Part shown: in pieces, positions 18,001-24,000 of the stretch
How positions within the stretch are numbered: position 1 is the stretch's first letter
Layout: every line of letters begins with the position of its first letter
Origin: Spirochaetales bacterium
Lineage (GTDB): Bacteria; Spirochaetota; Spirochaetia; Treponematales; UBA12059
DNA length: 28,882 nt
Assembly: GCA_016928955.1 (NCBI GenBank)
Contig: JAFGJV010000004.1
Coordinates: forward strand, 385,736 to 414,617
Direction of reading: 5' to 3'
Program-made: the position numbers

Positions 18001-21000
18001 TCATCCGCGACCAGTACCCTCATGCGTATCCTTTCCCGCGGTCCCTAGGTTCTTGGAACTTGCGGTCCGCGCTCGTGGGAGTATAATTGTAGCCTATGGA
18101 TCGGGAACGCGCACACAGGAAGATCCGCGACGCCGTGGTTGCCGGCATATTCTACCCAGACGAGCCGGCAGAGCTGGCGCGCGCCGTGGATGCCGCCCTG
18201 GACGCGTCCCCAAACGTGGAAACGGGCGCCCTTGCCATCTTGTCCCCGCGCGCCGGCTTTGGCTACTCGGGCGCCGTGCAGGCAGCCGCGTGGAAGGCAG
18301 CAGCCGGGCGTCCCGTGTCCCGTGTGGTCGTCTTAGGCACGCGGCGCTACAACGGCCAGGACAGCGTGTACCTACCCGAGTCGTCCGTATTCAAAACGCC
18401 CCTGGGGTTCATTCACGTGGACAGAGATCTGTGCGCCGAGCTGGAATCCTGCGGCACGATGTTCGACACCAACGACCTGCCCCACCTGGAAGACCATTCC
18501 ATAGAAGTCCAGCTGCCGTTCATGCAGAGGCTGTTCCCGGATGCCGATTTGGTACCCCTGATCCTGGAGGGAGCGGACGGCGCCGTGGTTGCCAACCTGG
18601 CCAGGGCGTTGGACCTGGTGATCGCGCCTCTGGCTGCCGACACCCTGATCGTCGTGTCCAGCAACCTCGGCTCATCCAGGAATTCAGACGACGCGCTTGC
18701 CACCAGCGAGCACATGCTGGAACTCATATCCAGCAAGCAGTGGCGCGGCCTTTTGGCCCAGCGTGACCACGGCTTTTCCCATGGATCGGCTGCCCTGGCC
18801 GCCTTCCTGGCCATGAAGAACGCGTCCGCGCTGGACGTCAGCGTGCTGGCCAGGGCGGATTCCAAGACCTTGGGGCATGAGAGCGCCGACCGCGTGGTCC
18901 ATTACGCGGCGGCGGCCTGGCGGAGGAAAAACTGATATGCTGGATCTTGGTTCGGAGGACAGGGCCGGCCTTCTGGCCACGGCCCGAGAAGCCATTCGGG
19001 CAAGGTTAGGCCACAGAAAGCCCGCGTGGCCGGCCCTCAGTCCGGCCGCGGCCCAGCCCTGCGGCGCTTTTGTCACCCTGCACAAGCACGGCAACCTCAG
19101 GGGCTGCATCGGAAGGATGGTGTCGTCCGAACCCCTGTACCAGGTAGTGCGCGACATGGCCGTGGCGGCCGCGTTCGATGATCCCCGCTTCCCGCCCCTG
19201 GACGCGTCCGAGGAACCGGAGCTGGACCTGGAGATATCAGCCCTGTCTCCCATGGAAAGTTGCAAGCCGGACGACGTTCAGCCTGGAGTACACGGCGTTC
19301 ATCTAAGCCTGGGCTGGAATTCCGGCGTATTCCTGCCCCAGGTGGCCCCGGAACAGGGCTGGGACCGTGACCAGCTCCTTCACCATCTCTGCCTGAAGGC
19401 TGGATTGCCGCCCGGTTCCCACCGGGATCCCGGGGCCGAGCTCAAGCGTTTTACCGCGGTGGTGTTCGGAGAACGGGACTAGGCTTCCAAGGCCACATCA
19501 GGCGGCGCGTACCCCAAAGCCTGCCAGCACCGTATGGATCAGGCGTTCGCAGTCCTCGTGATCGGTATGGTAGCCGCCTCGCTCTGTACGCTGCCTGATG
19601 ACCACGGTGCCATAGTCGTCGTCCCCGCCGCGTTCCACCTCGTAGCCCCGCGCCCGGAATTCCGCGAACGACGCGTGCGTGGGCCCCGAGCGCCCGCGCG
19701 TCAGCACGACCGCGTACATATACGGCACCTGCCCGTTGGGTCCGGTATTGATGGCCACCTGGAACTGGACGCCAACCAGGTCGGCCGGCTTGCGCCTGGG
19801 TTCCAGCATCAGCCTCATGTCCTCAGGCACGTCCTTGCCGTCGGCGTCCTTGTCAAAGCGCAGATACGGCGTGAGCACAAAGCCGTCGGGCAGGCGGACC
19901 GACATGACGGACAGGAAACTGGGCAGGATGCGGTTCAGCGTTGGCGGCGTGAAGGCAGACACGCGGCCAAAAAAGAGCCCGGGCACGGAGAACAGCGCGG
20001 TGTCGATCAAGGCCAGCGACAGGGTACCCGATACGGGCATGGCTATCAGTGCGGCCAGGCCCAGGCCCATAAGGCCGAGCACTCCCAGGGCCACGGGTCC
20101 GGCCAGCTTGGCCTTGATATTGCGGGTTTCCCGAATACCGTCGGCTATCCGGTCCACCTCCGCCACGGATACCGGCCGCCATTCTTCCAGGCCTTGGTCG
20201 TCCGGCTTATTGGTCACGGGCTTGATGGCCAGCACCAACCACGCCGCGGCTATGGCCGGCACGGACAACAGGGGCAGGCCCAGAACGGTCTGGCATACCA
20301 CAGCGAGCGCGTACAGGCCACCGGCGGCGGCCAGCCTAGCAGAAAGGCCCAGGCGCCCGAATCGGTAGTTCAGTTCCATGCGGATTTCTCCTTCCACGCG
20401 GCTTTCAGCTCGTCATAGCCGTTGACGCGCCAGTACAGCGGACAGGCTGCCTGGCAGGCGGTGAATAGGGAACAGGACCTGCATTCATCGGGCGCGTAGC
20501 GCTTGTCCTTGAGAAAGGCCGCCCGCTCCGAGAACCACACAGCCCGGAAGCCGTCGGCCAGAAGGTTGCCCACGGGCTCCGGCCAGGACGAACACGGCAG
20601 AACGTCCCCTGAAGGCGACACGGACAGAAGCCCGTCGCAGGCGGCGCAGCTTTTGTTCCCAAGCCCCCGCGCTATGGGGTTGTACACGCACATGGGCATG
20701 GGCGAATACCAGAGAAAATCCACGCCGGCCGACAGCGCGGCCTTGCGGACCCTGTCTATGAACGCGCCCGTGTCAGCGTAGCTCAGCGACAAATCCCGCT
20801 CAGTCATGCCCCTGCCGGCGGGTATGAACAGGTTCATGGACATGCGGCGTATGCCCAGGCTGGCAACGTATGCAGGCAGTTCCAAAAGGGCGTCCAGGTT
20901 TTTTGCCGTGGCCGTGGAATTGGTCTGGACCTCCACGCCCGCCTTCATGAGGGCGCGGATACCGGCCACGGTTTCCGCAAAGGCGCCGCGCCTGCCCACC

Positions 21001-24000
21001 AAGAAGTCGTGCGTCCCCGCGTCCGGGGCCTCAAGACTGACCTGAGCCGTGCGGAGTCCGGAACGGACCAGCGAGCGTGCCCGGGCCTTGTCGGCCAGGG
21101 TGCCGTTGCTGACCAGGTTTACGCGCAGGCCTTTGGACACGGCGTACGCGGCCAGCTCCTCTATGTCCTTCCGCACGAGCGGCTCGCCGCCGGTAAACGA
21201 GAAGAACGGCAGTTTTGCCTCGTCTCGGAATATGTCTATGACGCGCTTAAAACCGTCCGTGTCCAGTTCGTGCCCGCCCTGCACCTTGGCCAGGCCGTCG
21301 TCGCCCCCGCAGCCAGCGTAACAGAACAGGCAACGGTTGTTGCAGCGGTAGGTAACGGCTATCTCCCCGAGCACGGGCAGGCGCGTGAAGGAAAAATCGT
21401 AGGGCACACGGTCAAGCGACGACGCCTGTCCGCGGGCGGCCCGTTCCAGGTCGCGGAAAAAGGAGTCCACCTCGGCGGCACGTCCCTCGTCCATGCCCGG
21501 TATGTCCTCAAAGCGCCCGCCCGCCCCGAGGAACTCGACCAGCTGGGCACCTGTGGCATTGGTCTTGTACACCTGGTTAGGCGGCAAGATAACCACGTTG
21601 TCCTCCGTGCGCGCGTACGCGTACGGCCCAAGATCGAACCAGAAGCGGTATATCCAGGACAGGCGCTTCAATGGGCGCCCCCGGACACGCAGGCCGAGTG
21701 GCAGGCCGAGTGGCAGGCCGAGTGGCACGCCGAGTGGCACGCCGAATGACAGGCGTCGTGGCAGGCGTTGTGGCAAGCCGAGTAGCAGGCGTCCACCGTG
21801 CCGGTATTGGGCGGAGTGAAGCAACCCGAGTAGCAGGCGGCCGAGCGCATGAACTCGGCATAGCCCGACTGCATCCCGTCCGGGAGCCTGAGCTCCGACA
21901 GGTAGCCGGGATGGGACACTACCCGCGCGTAGCCGTGCCAGTACGACCAGTACCGATGGTCGCGTCGGTAGGCTGTCCTGCGCTCGTCAGTCCAGGTTTC
22001 CTGCTCGCGCGCAAGCTCCGTTTCCTTGGCCAGCCTGTCGCGGTAGAAAGCCTTGGTGGCCTCCAGGTCGCAATCCCAGAGCTTCTCCTGCAAACCTTTG
22101 ATGGCGTTCTCAAAAAAATCTGCCAGAAGGCCGGCCAGCACGTTGCCGTCCGCGTCAAAGGCGGCCAGGAAGGCCTCTTCCAGGGGATGTCCCGCTTTCT
22201 TGCCGGACAGGAAGCTAACGCGTAGCGGCTGTTCGCTCGTGATGGCCACGATGCCCTGGCCCCTGAGGCCTTCCAGCATGATGGCGGCCACCCGCGGCAG
22301 GGGCAGCTCCATGAGCAAGGCCACTTCCACGGGATGGAGGTCGTCACGCACCTTGCCGGGCACCTGGAAACTGCCCACAAAGAGTTTGGGCGGCGTCCAC
22401 GAGTCGCCTGCCCAGGCTATGCCTCCAACCATGGCCGCCCTGGCCGCGTGCCCCTTGGCGCGTTTATGGTACAGGAACAGGGCCAGGGCTATAGCCCCCC
22501 CGAACAGGGGAACAGCGAGCAAAGCCGGAAGCGCAAGGGGACGGATCCCGGGTTCTTGCTGGAAACCCACGCCGCTGTCTTCTGTGAACATGTTCGGTTC
22601 CGGCGTTGCGAGCCCTGAGCCGGCGTCGTCCAGTGCAACATCAATGCCCAGCCAGTCTTTTGGGAAATACAGCATGAGGTGCTGGCTTTCCTCGACACCC
22701 GGTCCCTCCTGATGGAACAGAATGGTCAGGTAATGACGCCCGTCATTCCCCGGCGACCCGTAGTAGTCTATCCGGTTCTGGCTGTTGACCTCGGGTTCGG
22801 TCAGCATGGGCACGGCCGCCTTGTCTTCCTGGCTGAGCTCGGGGCCATCCACCGACACAGGCGTCACCAGCCGCACGGTGCGGCTTTCCAATGGCTCGTC
22901 CCAGGTCACGGGCCCCCAGGAAAAGTACACCAGCGTGCCGTGCTCGTCGCTTTCCGTGATGCCCAACAGGCCGGCGCCCACCAGGTTGCCCGAGTAGTTC
23001 AGGTTGTAGTACGCCGTGCCCGAAAATCGGCGTCCGTCGGCAAGGAGCACGTCAAAGCGCGAGCCCAGGTCGTCTATCCGTAGCGGCACCCGCACCTGGC
23101 CTTCTAGGTCTGCGTAGCAGCGTTCCGGGTTCCACACCGGCTGGAACGCCTCGCCCTGAAAATAGAAACCGCCCATGGTGCCCTGGTCCACCCGCCATTC
23201 ATAACGGTGGAAAAACTCGCCCAGGCCGTCTGGCCTGAGCACCACGGTGATATCGGCCGACACCAGGTCGGCGTCCAGGGCGTACGCGGGCGACGCGGCG
23301 AGCGCCGTGGCCAGCGCAAGCGCCAGCGCGACGCGGAAAAACCTGCTGTTCATACGGTCTCCTTTATCGACAGGCCGTCGTCGCGGTGGAGTCGTCCGCT
23401 TATGTCCTCAGTTGCCCGCTCGAGCTGGGCCGCCTTGTCCCTGAGGAGTCCGGCGACGCGGGCCTGGGCTTGCAGAACCCTGTCGTCATCGGCAAGTTCA
23501 TAGCGGCGCTCGGTGGACGCGTCGTCCAGCTCCCTGAGATACAGGTTGATGACATCCAAGCCCTCGGCTATGGCGTCCTCGGCCTTGGGATCGCGGGTCT
23601 TCTCCCTGCGAGCTGCCTCCACGTATGCCCGCGCGCGCATGCCCAGAAGCTCGACCAGGGGCCTGAGCTCCGGGTCGGGCATGCGTACGCTGGACAGGCG
23701 CCTGGCCATGGCGTCTGCTCCCGCCAGGTAGGCCTGCGCCTTTTTCCAGTCAGCGCGCTCGCGCTCTGCCTGGGCGGCTTTAGGGCCCGCGCCGGACAGA
23801 AGGCCGGCCACAAAGGCCGCCGACCACAGTCCGACGCCGCATAGGACGGCAAGGGCGGGGCCCAGCGCTCTGAACAGCAGGAAGGTCAGAACCAGGGAAC
23901 CGGCCGTGGCCGCCATGCCCAGGGGTGAGCGTAGATAATGTCCAAGGTATGCACGGGTATCCATGCCCATACTGTAGCAGAGGGCGGGCAAAGCCGAAAG

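What a model noticed while it worked through the whole genome (the two positions that open the first line are those of the whole stretch)
19498..23916. Radical SAM/SPASM enzyme paired with a membrane protein that ends in an invariant (Ala-Cys-His-Xaa)8 tail
g00340 (561 aa) has a signal peptide, an extracytoplasmic beta-sandwich, one membrane helix and a cytoplasmic domain. It ends in eight consecutive Ala-Cys-His-Xaa repeats followed by Ala-Cys-Val-Ser-Gly-Gly. Its stop overlaps the start of a radical SAM/SPASM enzyme (g00339) that fits no named maturase family. g00341 and g00338, both without any family, flank the pair. The tail is far better conserved than the rest of the protein and the enzyme nearly always follows it, so the tail is the likely substrate. 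That would make this a SPASM maturase acting on the C-terminus of a large membrane protein rather than on a small peptide. The family has no Pfam or NCBIfam model.
Evidence so far: Sequences. NCBIfam: the best hit of g00339 is AhbD at 141 bits against a cut-off of 500, and the ACGX-system enzyme scores 70 against 400; none exceeds its cut-off. g00340, g00341 and g00338 have no family at E<=0.01 and no Pfam at E<=1. 19 of 40 other Treponematales genomes have g00340. In 7 of 7 loci read, the order g00341-g00340-g00339 is kept and the last 45 residues are nearly identical, while the whole proteins are 54-62% identical. Protein library: 290 cluster representatives; 21 of 22 C-termini printed carry 1-10 such repeats. 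genome_contigs: 534 stretches. Of the best 80 loci, 75 hold the whole tail with 6-9 repeats. 64 of the 66 with room downstream have the enzyme directly downstr [...]
(Added by a program. Inside this text positions count along the whole contig: contig position 385,736 is position 1 of the stretch shown here. "Call 12" and the like, gene names such as g00115 and contig names such as C1 are that model's own, and its searches are not shown. The text may have been shortened before it was handed on; [...] marks where a part breaks off. The agent that wrote the report below was given it as the finding of a first reader that could run no searches.)

Follow-up and report, generated by a model that had tools for sequence, protein, structure and literature searches.

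The report
Radical-SAM target inside a membrane protein
A bacterial membrane protein ends in a nearly unchanging His-x-Ala-Cys repeat and carries, about 200 residues earlier, the kind of docking motif that peptide-modifying enzymes read, so the enzyme encoded next door very probably remodels the tail of a whole membrane protein by chemistry nobody has yet measured.

Summary
Observation real, with corrections. g00340 has 7 (not 8) exact ACHx units and 9 Cys at period 4. The true unit is His-x-Ala-Cys: insertions fall between Cys and the next His, not inside it. The four-gene order is kept wherever there is room, and protein and enzyme co-occur in 98 of 103 genomes holding either. g00340 is not orphan: it is a distant DUF2207/TIGR04222-type scaffold. 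g00339 has an N-terminal RRE-like domain. Added here: a [WY]xxPx[LIV] RRE-type recognition motif just inside the membrane (residues 319-329) is kept in 214 of 231 homologues. It is absent from 12 of 12 canonical DUF2207 proteins and lost together with the tail in three homologues. A predicted complex with the enzyme gave weak support (0.53, best control 0.01). The tail is the likely substrate (about 0.8); an in-line His/Cys thioether is my best guess (0.45). No chemistry was tested. Precedent: CrpC/CrpA (PMC13692751) and QhpD modify proteins; one tail fragment stands as an uncharacterised precursor in a 2023 supplement. The scan reported this system before on other DNA.

The parts
23350..23970 (-). 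g00341, 206 aa: N-terminal membrane hairpin and a cytoplasmic, probably helical domain; no family; first gene of the cassette in Treponematales
   Evidence: upstream of the target in 96 of 96 loci with room; not detected in the more distant loci L129, L130, L132-L134, L136-L138
21668..23353 (-). g00340, 561 aa single-pass membrane protein of the DUF2207/TIGR04222-like scaffold; inferred substrate
23279..23353 (-). signal peptide, residues 1-25
   Evidence: hydropathy and model helix 3-19; cleavage after A-Y-A is inferred
22649..23278 (-). extracytoplasmic beta-sandwich, residues 26-235, fold of the ribophorin-I luminal / M1-aminopeptidase N-terminal domain; distant DUF2207 N-terminal domain
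   Evidence: VIA Z 15.6, rmsd 2.9, 185 aligned to 6c26; Foldseek; Pfam on homologues
22466..22531 (-). membrane helix, residues 275-296, followed by KRAK
22367..22399 (-). candidate internal RRE recognition sequence W319-x-x-P-x-L-x-x-x-x-F329
   Evidence: 214 of 231 homologue segments; background 16 of 8400; 0 of 12 canonical DUF2207; unstructured in the monomer model; weak complex support
22034..22348 (-). cytoplasmic domain, residues about 336-440, GOLPH3/Vps74-like; weak TIGR04222 hits in homologues
   Evidence: VIA Z 6.4, rmsd 4.5, 134 aligned to 3kn1 (a middling score); TIGR04222 below cut-off in 5 homologues
21671..21787 (-). tail, residues 523-561: nine Cys at period 4, seven H-x-A-C units (528-555), ending VSGGAH; inferred core
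20370..21671 (-). g00339, 433 aa RRE + radical SAM + SPASM enzyme of no named family
21390..21671 (-). RRE (PqqD-like) domain, residues 1-94
   Evidence: PF05402 in 14 of 21 homologues at E<=1, best 4.8e-4, this protein 0.032, all below the curated cut-off as far as shown; lasso PqqD chaperone NF033530 at E 0.15 is the only NCBIfam hit
21321..21344 (-). CxxxCxxC motif C110/C114/C117
   Evidence: 99 of 99 full-length homologues
20442..20690 (-). SPASM domain with seven conserved Cys (328, 342, 360, 397, 400, 406, 410); C345 is not conserved and there is no conserved distal Cys
   Evidence: TIGR04085 42.9 bits over cut-off 27
19498..20379 (-). g00338, 293 aa: four predicted membrane helices and a cytoplasmic alpha/beta domain weakly like type III chaperone/YbjN/MotA folds; inferred partner of g00340
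   Evidence: best Z 7.5, weak; downstream of the enzyme in 90 of 90 loci with room; fused to a g00340-type ectodomain in P0065

Best explanation
g00340 is a membrane-anchored 'precursor' whose leader and core lie inside one large protein. After insertion in the membrane, its cytoplasmic half presents a W-x-x-P-x-L strand (319-329). The RRE of the co-translated enzyme g00339 binds it and brings the radical SAM site to the flexible C-terminal tail, which it modifies unit by unit. The most likely product is a row of unnested four-residue thioether rings, the sulfur of each Cys joined to a carbon (alpha or beta) of the His three residues before it, as NxxcB does on N-x-x-C and as GggB/QmpB do in line. 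With no co-conserved protease or exporter, the modified tail probably stays on the protein as a rigid imidazole/sulfur array: a metal- or redox-responsive or partner-binding module coupled to the outer beta-sandwich, with g00338 and g00341 as membrane partners. Shown: anatomy, register, linkage, co-occurrence, motif co-variation. Inferred: binding, modification, bond type, retention on the protein, physiological role. My odds that the tail is the enzyme's substrate at all are about 0.8; the confidence below is for the thioether version.
For: Enzyme is the next gene in 117 of 117 tail-bearing loci with room, taking together (112 of 118 by an offset rule, 110 of 117 by a motif rule; the misses of each rule pass the other; L047 set aside, see report). 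Protein in 101 and RRE in 100 of 401 Treponematales genomes, both in 98, neither in 298 (kin are not independent). RRE-like domain. W/Y/LxxP is a published RRE recognition sequence, tested for StsA (PMC12710340, passages). Motif in 214 of 231 homologue segments, 0 of 12 canonical DUF2207 proteins, and lost with the tail in P0061, P0064 and P0075. Complex of the enzyme with residues 303-348: score 0.53, best of 3 controls 0.01, verdict weak support. The mark was reached by 116 of 157 solved complexes and 2 of 215 mismatched pairs, but at 0.60 or under by only 18 of the 157 and by both mismatches; runs agree in at least 60% of contacts; partner pLDDT at least 46. No interface was given, and solved RRE-leader complexes exist, so the pass may be from likeness. 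Fixed His(i)-Cys(i+3) spacing in 805 of 818 units with a free middle residue. Best PDB match of the family profile is the sactisynthase SkfB. Active-site profile Y-T-[IV]-S-S-S matches StsB's Y-T-I-S-K-L at four of six places (PMC10288494, sections 7 and 9). In-line and NxxC thioethers: PMC9389541, passages. Thioethers on a large Cys-repeat protein: PMC13692751. The mining set of PMC10288494 lists one such tail as an uncharacterised precursor beside its rSAM.
Against: No modification, binding or expression was observed. The SPASM cysteines differ from CrpC's layout (AuxI three Cys, AuxII four): here the distal AuxII Cys is missing and an extra Cys328 is kept in 97 of 99. If Cys328 fills AuxI (inferred by analogy with SuiB/anSME, recalled), the open site thought to hold the substrate thiol is absent, which favours non-thioether chemistry. 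The T/I/S part of the profile also stands in BlsE, which does not make thioethers (alignments), and positions 5-6 do not match StsB. His as thioether acceptor has no precedent in the papers I read. The monomer model makes the tail one helix, at low confidence (pLDDT under 50), as in unmodified Cys-helix metal binders. Seventeen of 231 segments miss the strict motif. The DNA context of the tail-less homologues could not be seen.
Confidence: 0.45

Rival explanations
1. Same substrate, carbon-carbon chemistry: each H-x-A is a triceptide-type motif and the enzyme joins His C2 to Ala C-beta, as HaaB does on HAA, leaving the Cys free to bind metal.
For: His and Ala are invariant with a free middle residue (805 and 810 of 818). 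The unit before the array is often aromatic-x-A-C (YSAC 30, YDAC 9 of 108 cores). HaaB chemistry: PMC11499958 (first third), PMC11002830 (passages). A possibly saturated AuxI.
Against: No cyclophane-synthase family appears among the best 25 whole-protein hits; the dynobactin maturase model scores 22.5 against 450 on the SPASM part; the FxsB model did not report this locus. It does not explain why Cys is invariant at +1 to Ala.
Confidence: 0.15
2. Same substrate, other chemistry: oxidation of each Ala-Cys to a thiooxazole (SbtM-like, minus 4 Da), a Cys-S to imidazole-ring bond, or a reaction not yet known, giving a copper-type ligand array.
For: SbtM is an rSAM/SPASM that turns Cys into thiooxazole (PMC11002830) and is the third-best family for the SPASM part (32.2 bits against 350). 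Related TIGR04222 membrane proteins with Cys tails are proposed substrates of Cys-oxidising MNIO enzymes (PMC12452194, section 16). The residue before Cys is invariant Ala.
Against: SbtM scores 59.3 against 350 on the whole protein. Thiooxazole formation alone does not need a fixed His at minus 3.
Confidence: 0.2
3. The tail is an unmodified Zn/Cu/Fe-S binding ladder (HxxC knuckles or a CxxxC helix). The enzyme acts on something else (g00338, g00341, a lipid or a small molecule) or only loads metal.
For: HxxC and CxxxC are common metal-site spacings (recalled). The model shows a helix. GDGT macrocycle synthase and MoaA are among the PDB relatives. g00338 is always in the cassette in Treponematales loci.
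Against: It does not explain the RRE, the recognition-type motif or its loss with the tail. Insertions between units would break a continuous helix face but not separate catalytic events. g00338 has one near-invariant Cys, and in the large-form loci a different third gene follows while tail and enzyme stay.
Confidence: 0.12
4. The tail binds haem through CxxxCH motifs and the enzyme is an AhbD/NirJ-like haem enzyme or chaperone.
For: C-H-x-A-C-H reads as CxxxCH; AhbD and NirJ2 are the best NCBIfam hits; the genome has one PF01578 cytochrome c assembly gene.
Against: AhbD scores 141 against 500. The tail is inferred cytoplasmic, whereas haem c is attached outside the membrane (established knowledge). 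No PF17805 (AhbA/B-type, label recalled) or CcmE match in this 99%-complete genome. No haem gene is co-conserved. The fixed spacing is His to the next Cys; Cys to next His tolerates insertions.
Confidence: 0.03

Closest known systems
CrpC/CrpA of Methanococcus voltae (TIGR04463; PMC13692751, 2026; abstract, sections 8 and 14, passages and a supplement search read)
   Same: RRE + radical SAM + SPASM enzyme with seven SPASM Cys encoded beside a large protein with C-terminal Cys repeats; thioethers on a protein, not a peptide; metal role suspected.
   Different: [quoted passage not shown] Here: single-pass membrane protein, internal motif, four-residue HxAC unit, other Cys layout. TIGR04463 scores 10.3 against 525 on the SPASM part.
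QhpD/QhpC (TIGR03906; PMC10114670, passages)
   Same: rSAM/SPASM installing intra-protein thioethers.
   Different: QhpC is a small enzyme subunit with Asp/Glu acceptors (recalled); TIGR03906 scores 17.9 against 453.
NxxcB, GggB, QmpB (PMC9389541, passages)
   Same: In-line, unnested thioether rings; NxxC has the acceptor three residues before the Cys, the spacing fixed here.
   Different: Short free peptides; acceptor Asn (NxxcB); no membrane anchor. No sequence comparison with these enzymes was possible.
CXXX-repeat radical SAM target system (TIGR04117/04118 targets, TIGR04115 maturase; bioinformatic)
   Same: Cys every fourth residue at the C-terminus beside an rSAM; tails hit TIGR04117 weakly.
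   Different: Best tail-bearing homologue scores 28.1 against 50. The target model is 98 positions long. TIGR04115 is not among the top 25 families of g00339 and did not report the locus.
TIGR04222 membrane proteins with MNIO enzymes (PMC12452194, section 16)
   Same: Related scaffold (5 homologues hit TIGR04222 below cut-off) with a Cys-containing C-terminal tail proposed as an in-protein substrate.
   Different: Other enzyme class; tails Ser/Gly-rich and predicted periplasmic; association incomplete.
DUF2207 (YciQ-like) membrane proteins, PF09972/PF20990
   Same: Signal peptide, beta-sandwich, membrane helix, then an L-x-P-x-E helix domain.
   Different: Canonical members end in Gly/Ser tails and lack the WxxPxL insert (0 of 12); g00340 itself is below both cut-offs.
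HaaB/HtkB triceptide synthases (PMC11499958)
   Same: Repeated His-x-Ala motifs as substrates.
   Different: No family-level similarity found for g00339; no Cys in the motif.

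Membership tests
Radical SAM/SPASM superfamily | CxxxCxxC, radical SAM core and SPASM domain over curated cut-offs | tested here: met
   PF04055 82.6 against 29.5, PF13186 30.5 against 21.5; TIGR04085 42.9 against 27
RRE-dependent peptide/protein maturases | N-terminal RRE (PqqD-like) domain | tested here: met
   PF05402 in 14 of 21 homologues at E<=1 (best 4.8e-4), below cut-off for this protein; met on consistency, not on score; no 3D model of the enzyme was searched
RRE-dependent peptide/protein maturases | Recognition sequence in the substrate bound by the RRE | tested here: inconclusive
   motif statistics and weak complex support without interface
RiPPs in the strict sense | Short precursor released by a protease and exported | tested here: not met
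   561-aa membrane protein; no protease or exporter co-conserved in 140 loci; release by a distant protease not excluded
Sacti-/ranthisynthases (SkfB, StsB, CteB, PapB, NxxcB) | Cys-to-carbon thioether formed | not testable with these tools
   needs mass spectrometry
Sacti-/ranthisynthases | Family model over cut-off (StsB, AlbA, PapB, SCIFF) | tested here: not met
   StsB 83.1/625, AlbA 65.7/850, PapB 65.6/340; SCIFF 13.7/425 on the SPASM part
Sacti-/ranthisynthases | Catalytic-site proximity profile (PMC10288494) | tested here: inconclusive
   Y-T-[IV]-S-S-S, positions assigned by motif, against StsB Y-T-I-S-K-L and CteB F-F-T-S-H-Q; the paper's SI PDF with the other profiles was too large to read
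CrpC family TIGR04463 | Model score over cut-off | tested here: not met
   10.3 against 525 on the SPASM part; not in the top 25 for the whole protein
CXXX-repeat system (TIGR04115/04117) | Maturase and target models over cut-off | tested here: not met
   TIGR04117 6.4 and 13 bits here, at best 28.1 against 50; TIGR04115 under 55 bits against 350 (not in top 25)
PF27846 | Pfam match on the tail | not testable with these tools
   precomputed on 14 of 60 homologues but absent from the local Pfam copy; its name was not obtained
AhbD/NirJ haem enzymes | Equivalog score and haem pathway context | tested here: not met
   141.1 against 500
Triceptide synthases (3-CyFE) | Aromatic-x-x substrate motif | tested here: met
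   H-x-A in 805/810 of 818 units
Triceptide synthases (3-CyFE) | Enzyme family similarity | tested here: inconclusive
   FxsB model did not report the locus (candidates only); HaaB not compared directly
DUF2207 | PF09972 N-terminal domain | tested here: inconclusive
   no hit for g00340; 2 of 17 scanned proteins over the cut-off, 5 more below it; a wide profile hits canonical members at E down to 2.7e-8 in a 12-sequence set
DUF2207 | PF20990 C-terminal domain with Gly/Ser tail | tested here: not met
   no match in this genome; tail is HxAC
TIGR04222 | Model over cut-off 43 | tested here: not met
   best homologue 25.5 bits

The most novel reading that the evidence does not exclude
A widespread bacterial and Asgard-archaeal system in which RiPP logic is built into a receptor-like single-pass membrane protein: an internal RRE recognition sequence next to the membrane, 200 residues and one folded domain ahead of a core that is never released. 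The enzyme installs seven or more His-Cys crosslinks of a type not yet described. The DUF2207/TIGR04222 scaffold would then be a general carrier whose tail (Gly/Ser, Cys-Ala, HxAC) is swapped together with a dedicated tailoring enzyme, which gives a first handle on what DUF2207 proteins do.
Probability: 0.3. Interest if true: 0.88.

Novelty: new variant of a known kind. Interest (0 to 1): 0.7.

Why it matters
RiPP mining filters discard long precursors: PMC10288494 removed precursor genes over 600 bp, and PMC13692751 required at least 5% Cys for proteins over 250 aa, where g00340 has 13 of 561. A substrate hidden in a membrane protein is therefore missed by design. If right, this extends RRE-guided radical chemistry to integral membrane proteins, shows that leader and core can be 200 residues apart, and offers an enzyme that may staple His-x-Ala-Cys units in series. 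It names a testable site (W319/P322/L324) and a soluble construct, so one co-expression experiment can decide it. It also ties the poorly understood DUF2207 scaffold to post-translational chemistry.

Tried and rejected
Simple DNA slippage repeat: rejected (codon variation; protein-level conservation). Natural target-enzyme fusion: L047 reads as one 1051-aa frame, but the like case L154 has an ambiguous base in the tail, so I treat it as an assembly fault. Internal start at Met502 making a small precursor: no ribosome-binding site before it, and the Met is missing in distant clades; the 65-residue 'precursor' in the PMC10288494 supplement matches the end of 916-1052-aa proteins and is best read as a mis-called fragment. 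Free-standing tail peptide in G130: a chance Leu-Leu-Ala-Cys repeat. Phages and plasmids: no match; 7 and 1 IMG/VR loci were out-of-frame chance repeats. Context of the soluble HxAC proteins P0238/P0244: not found (2 of 401 genomes matched the pattern, neither in such a gene). Context of the tail-less subfamily: not found; the best genome hit G390 has the intact tail, enzyme and g00338. g00341: no family or solved relative; no model or Atlas result obtained, so its fold is open. g00338: no Foldseek match at E<=0.001, best VIA Z 7.5; Atlas clusters unnamed. RRE profile against PDB sequences: nothing. Expression: RNA-library contigs from sludge cover the region evenly at depth about 2-7, like DNA, so they show presence only. 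No promoter-like site; no Rfam match in the cassette. Paper searches with no relevant hit: 'radical SAM'+'DUF2207', tail strings and 'CXXX repeat', six-term membrane/RRE query, SPASM/Cys-rich/membrane, TIGR04114/15/17/18, PF27846, HxAC. DUF2207/LemA gave only a neighbourhood remark. Supplements of PMC13692751 held as text (3 files) have no HSAC, DUF2207 or Spirochaet. The library lacks most subscription journals and bioRxiv supplements, so a description there is not excluded.

Full report
Observation. g00340 ends in D-A-C-Y-S, seven A-C-H-x units and A-C-V-S-G-G-A-H: nine Cys at period four, seven His. The family scores it quoted are reproduced. The repeat is held at protein level: 129 distinct DNA versions use both His, both Cys, all four Ala and all six Ser codons. 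In 42 non-redundant tail-bearing homologues (chosen from 181; 17-56% identical to g00340 over residues 1-500), mean column conservation is 0.88 in the tail, 0.53 in residues 312-335, 0.49 in the cytoplasmic domain, 0.44 in the ectodomain and 0.17 in the linker.

Linkage. I read 128 loci (48 from genomes; the best 80 of 173 from metagenomes; many are close kin). Of 125 that include the stop codon, 124 end in the tail. g00341 precedes in 96 of 96 and g00338 follows in 90 of 90 loci with room. The enzyme is next in 112 of 118 by an offset rule and 110 of 117 by a motif rule; the misses of each rule pass the other, so 117 of 117 tail-bearing loci hold it. L047 reads as a fusion and was set aside, because the like case L154 has an ambiguous base there. 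Across 401 Treponematales genomes the protein was found in 101 (query P0061) and the enzyme's N-terminal domain in 100: both in 98, neither in 298, five discordant. I looked at one of the five (G333), cut by a contig end. Kin are not independent. In the whole phylum 13 of 301 genomes matched, one of them by chance. More distant loci keep target and enzyme adjacent in all 8 that had room (L129, L130, L132-L134, L136-L138). Clustering the frames of 140 loci shows only the four genes as common; the next cluster that keeps the cassette's orientation, an OmpA protein, is in 18. No protease, exporter or haem gene recurs. Beyond spirochaetes, a profile finds 537 cluster representatives at E<=0.001. 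Named or clustered relatives include Ozemobacteraceae, Thorarchaeota and Atlas clusters led by Elusimicrobiota, Bacillota, Aminicenantota and Myxococcota (taxa rest on few members). I did not see their DNA context.

The target is not an orphan. NCBI names 2 of 16 hits DUF2207. Two of 17 scanned proteins pass the PF09972 cut-off and five more hit below it; the Atlas links a homologue to DUF2207 clusters. The model (mean pLDDT 80.7) has a ribophorin-I/M1-aminopeptidase-type beta-sandwich (Z 15.6, rmsd 2.9, 185 aligned), one membrane helix and a GOLPH3/Vps74-like cytoplasmic domain (Z 6.4, rmsd 4.5, 134 aligned). Five homologues hit TIGR04222 below cut-off. Fourteen of 60 tail hits carry PF27846, a family I could not name.

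The unit is H-x-A-C. In 108 distinct tail cores (from 190 complete tails among 329 family sequences), His stands three before Cys in 805 and Ala one before Cys in 810 of 818 units, while the middle residue varies (S, D, N, T, G, H, A, Q). Where spacing departs from four, the extra residues lie between a Cys and the next His (CVHDAC 13, CYVHTAC 4, CVHSAC 3 and others). A His is followed by Cys at three in 805 of 818 cases, and 11 others are the middle His of HHAC. So the constraint is within His-x-Ala-Cys, unit by unit, not along a continuous helix face. Earlier scan notes used this wording; the test is mine.

The enzyme and a hidden leader. g00339 has a PqqD-like N-terminal domain (14 of 21 homologues hit PF05402 at E<=1, best 4.8e-4), whose only NCBIfam hit is a lasso-peptide RRE. 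RREs bind W/Y/LxxP-type strands (PMC12710340, passages). g00340 has W319-T-P-P-K-L-F-V-G-S-F329 just inside the membrane, in a stretch that is conserved yet unstructured in the monomer model. The pattern [WY]xxPx[LIVM]xxxx[FY] stands in 214 of 231 homologue segments. Of the 17 misses most keep WxxPx[LIV] or were cut by my window, while P0061, P0064 and P0075 lack it. These three are apparently full-length proteins of 494-529 aa (the P0061 cluster has 56 members) that also lack the tail. Background is 16 of 8400 shuffled windows, and 0 of 12 canonical DUF2207 proteins have it at the same junction. A complex of the enzyme with residues 303-348 scored 0.53 against 0.01 for the best of 3 controls: weak support. 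The mark was reached by 116 of 157 solved complexes and 2 of 215 mismatches, but at 0.60 or under by only 18 of the 157 and by both mismatches; runs agreed in at least 60% of contacts, partner pLDDT was at least 46, no interface was given, and likeness to solved RRE-leader complexes may explain the pass.

Chemistry. The enzyme fits no named family. The family profile's best PDB matches are SkfB, BlsE and PqqE. In 99 full-length homologues the SPASM domain keeps Cys328 (97), Cys342, Cys360 and the CxxCx5Cx3C motif (99); Cys345 is kept in only 26, and no distal Cys is conserved. That is seven ligands, as in CrpC, but placed differently (CrpC: three for AuxI, four for AuxII), which counts against a simple ranthisynthase reading. 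The six-residue site profile is Y-T-[IV]-S-S-S, four of six like StsB, but those four are not specific. The fixed His(i)-Cys(i+3) spacing matches the NxxC beta-thioether and the in-line rings of GggB/QmpB, so I rank a His/Cys thioether first (0.45), then thiooxazole or an unknown reaction (0.2), His-Ala cyclophane (0.15), an unmodified metal site (0.12) and haem (0.03). All are inference.

Partners and role. g00338 folds as four membrane helices plus an alpha/beta domain only weakly like type III chaperones. In P0065 (cluster of 3) a g00338 homologue is fused to a g00340-type ectodomain without motif or tail, which suggests that the two work as one membrane complex. g00341 remains without a fold. 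With no release machinery, the modified tail probably stays in place as a ligand or signalling module; this step has no direct evidence.

Comparison and novelty. It works like an RRE-dependent rSAM/SPASM protein maturase (CrpC, QhpD) but is a member of none of the curated families tested. PMC13692751 (September 2026) shows thioethers on a large Cys-repeat protein, so 'SPASM enzyme on a protein' is not new. The supplement of PMC10288494 lists one HSAC tail fragment as an 'Other Uncharacterized' singleton precursor beside rSAM PKL36244.1, and PMC12452194 proposes the parallel case for MNIO enzymes. I found no paper that describes this cassette, within a library that lacks most subscription journals. 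New here are the membrane anchor, the internal recognition motif and the HxAC unit. The scan has reported the system on other DNA at least nine times; those notes are not evidence. What I saw of each paper: PMC13692751 abstract, sections 8 and 14, passages, supplement search; PMC10288494 sections 7, 9, 11, passages, first part of the spreadsheet and a search in it (SI PDF unreadable); PMC12710340 abstract and passages; PMC12452194 section 16 and passages; PMC11499958 first third; PMC9389541, PMC11002830, PMC10114670 and PMC12631010 passages. Cluster ligation in SuiB/anSME, metal-site spacings and the site of haem c attachment are recalled.

Verdict. Real, widespread, undescribed as a system, very probably an enzyme-substrate pair; a new variant of a known kind with a clear experiment. 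Interest 0.70.

Noticed in passing
P0238, P0244/P0245: Proteins of 143-229 aa unrelated to DUF2207, with a hydrophobic N-terminus and the same H-x-A-C repeat, ending CHGSRGWR; P0238 carries PF27846. Possibly free precursors of a related system.
   Followed up: partly
P0061 (56 members, Treponemataceae), P0064, P0075: Homologues that keep ectodomain, membrane helix and cytoplasmic domain but have lost both the WxxPxL motif and the tail; genomic context not found.
   Followed up: partly
P0065/P0227/P0228: Fusion of a g00340-type ectodomain and membrane helix to a whole g00338 homologue; P0033 joins the two through an apparent deletion.
   Followed up: partly
L129:3497-8928, L130, L134, L136, L137: A large form (916-1052 aa, extra outer domain and membrane helices, tail ending VSSF with CVH insertions) followed by the enzyme and a different, coiled-coil-like 421-478 aa third gene.
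   Followed up: partly
P0230 (Thorarchaeota cluster): C-terminus reads like the HSAC repeat in a shifted frame; probably an assembly frameshift. DNA not seen.
   Followed up: no
window 18096-19482 (+): MEMO1-like and AMMECR1 genes converge on the cassette; the radical SAM partner that usually goes with them (recalled) is not beside them. A MEMO1-like cluster occurs in only 7 of 140 loci.
   Followed up: partly
window 12851-16689 (+): TPP riboswitch ahead of an ABC transporter operon, probably for thiamine.
   Followed up: no
window 24031-25407 (-): OmpA-domain protein directly upstream of the cassette; kept in 18 of 140 loci, so lineage synteny only.
   Followed up: partly
window 16677-18023 (-): Sigma-54-type response regulator by sequence appearance.
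   Followed up: no
L131:5462-5660 and 7033-7222: Intergenic-looking Leu-Leu-Ala-Cys (12-nt) tandem repeats in G130 between duplicated genes; unrelated to this system.
   Followed up: no
earlier findings: Notes describe a sister system with Cys-Ala tails on DUF2207-like proteins in Chloroflexota and archaea; whether it has the same WxxP motif is untested.
   Followed up: no
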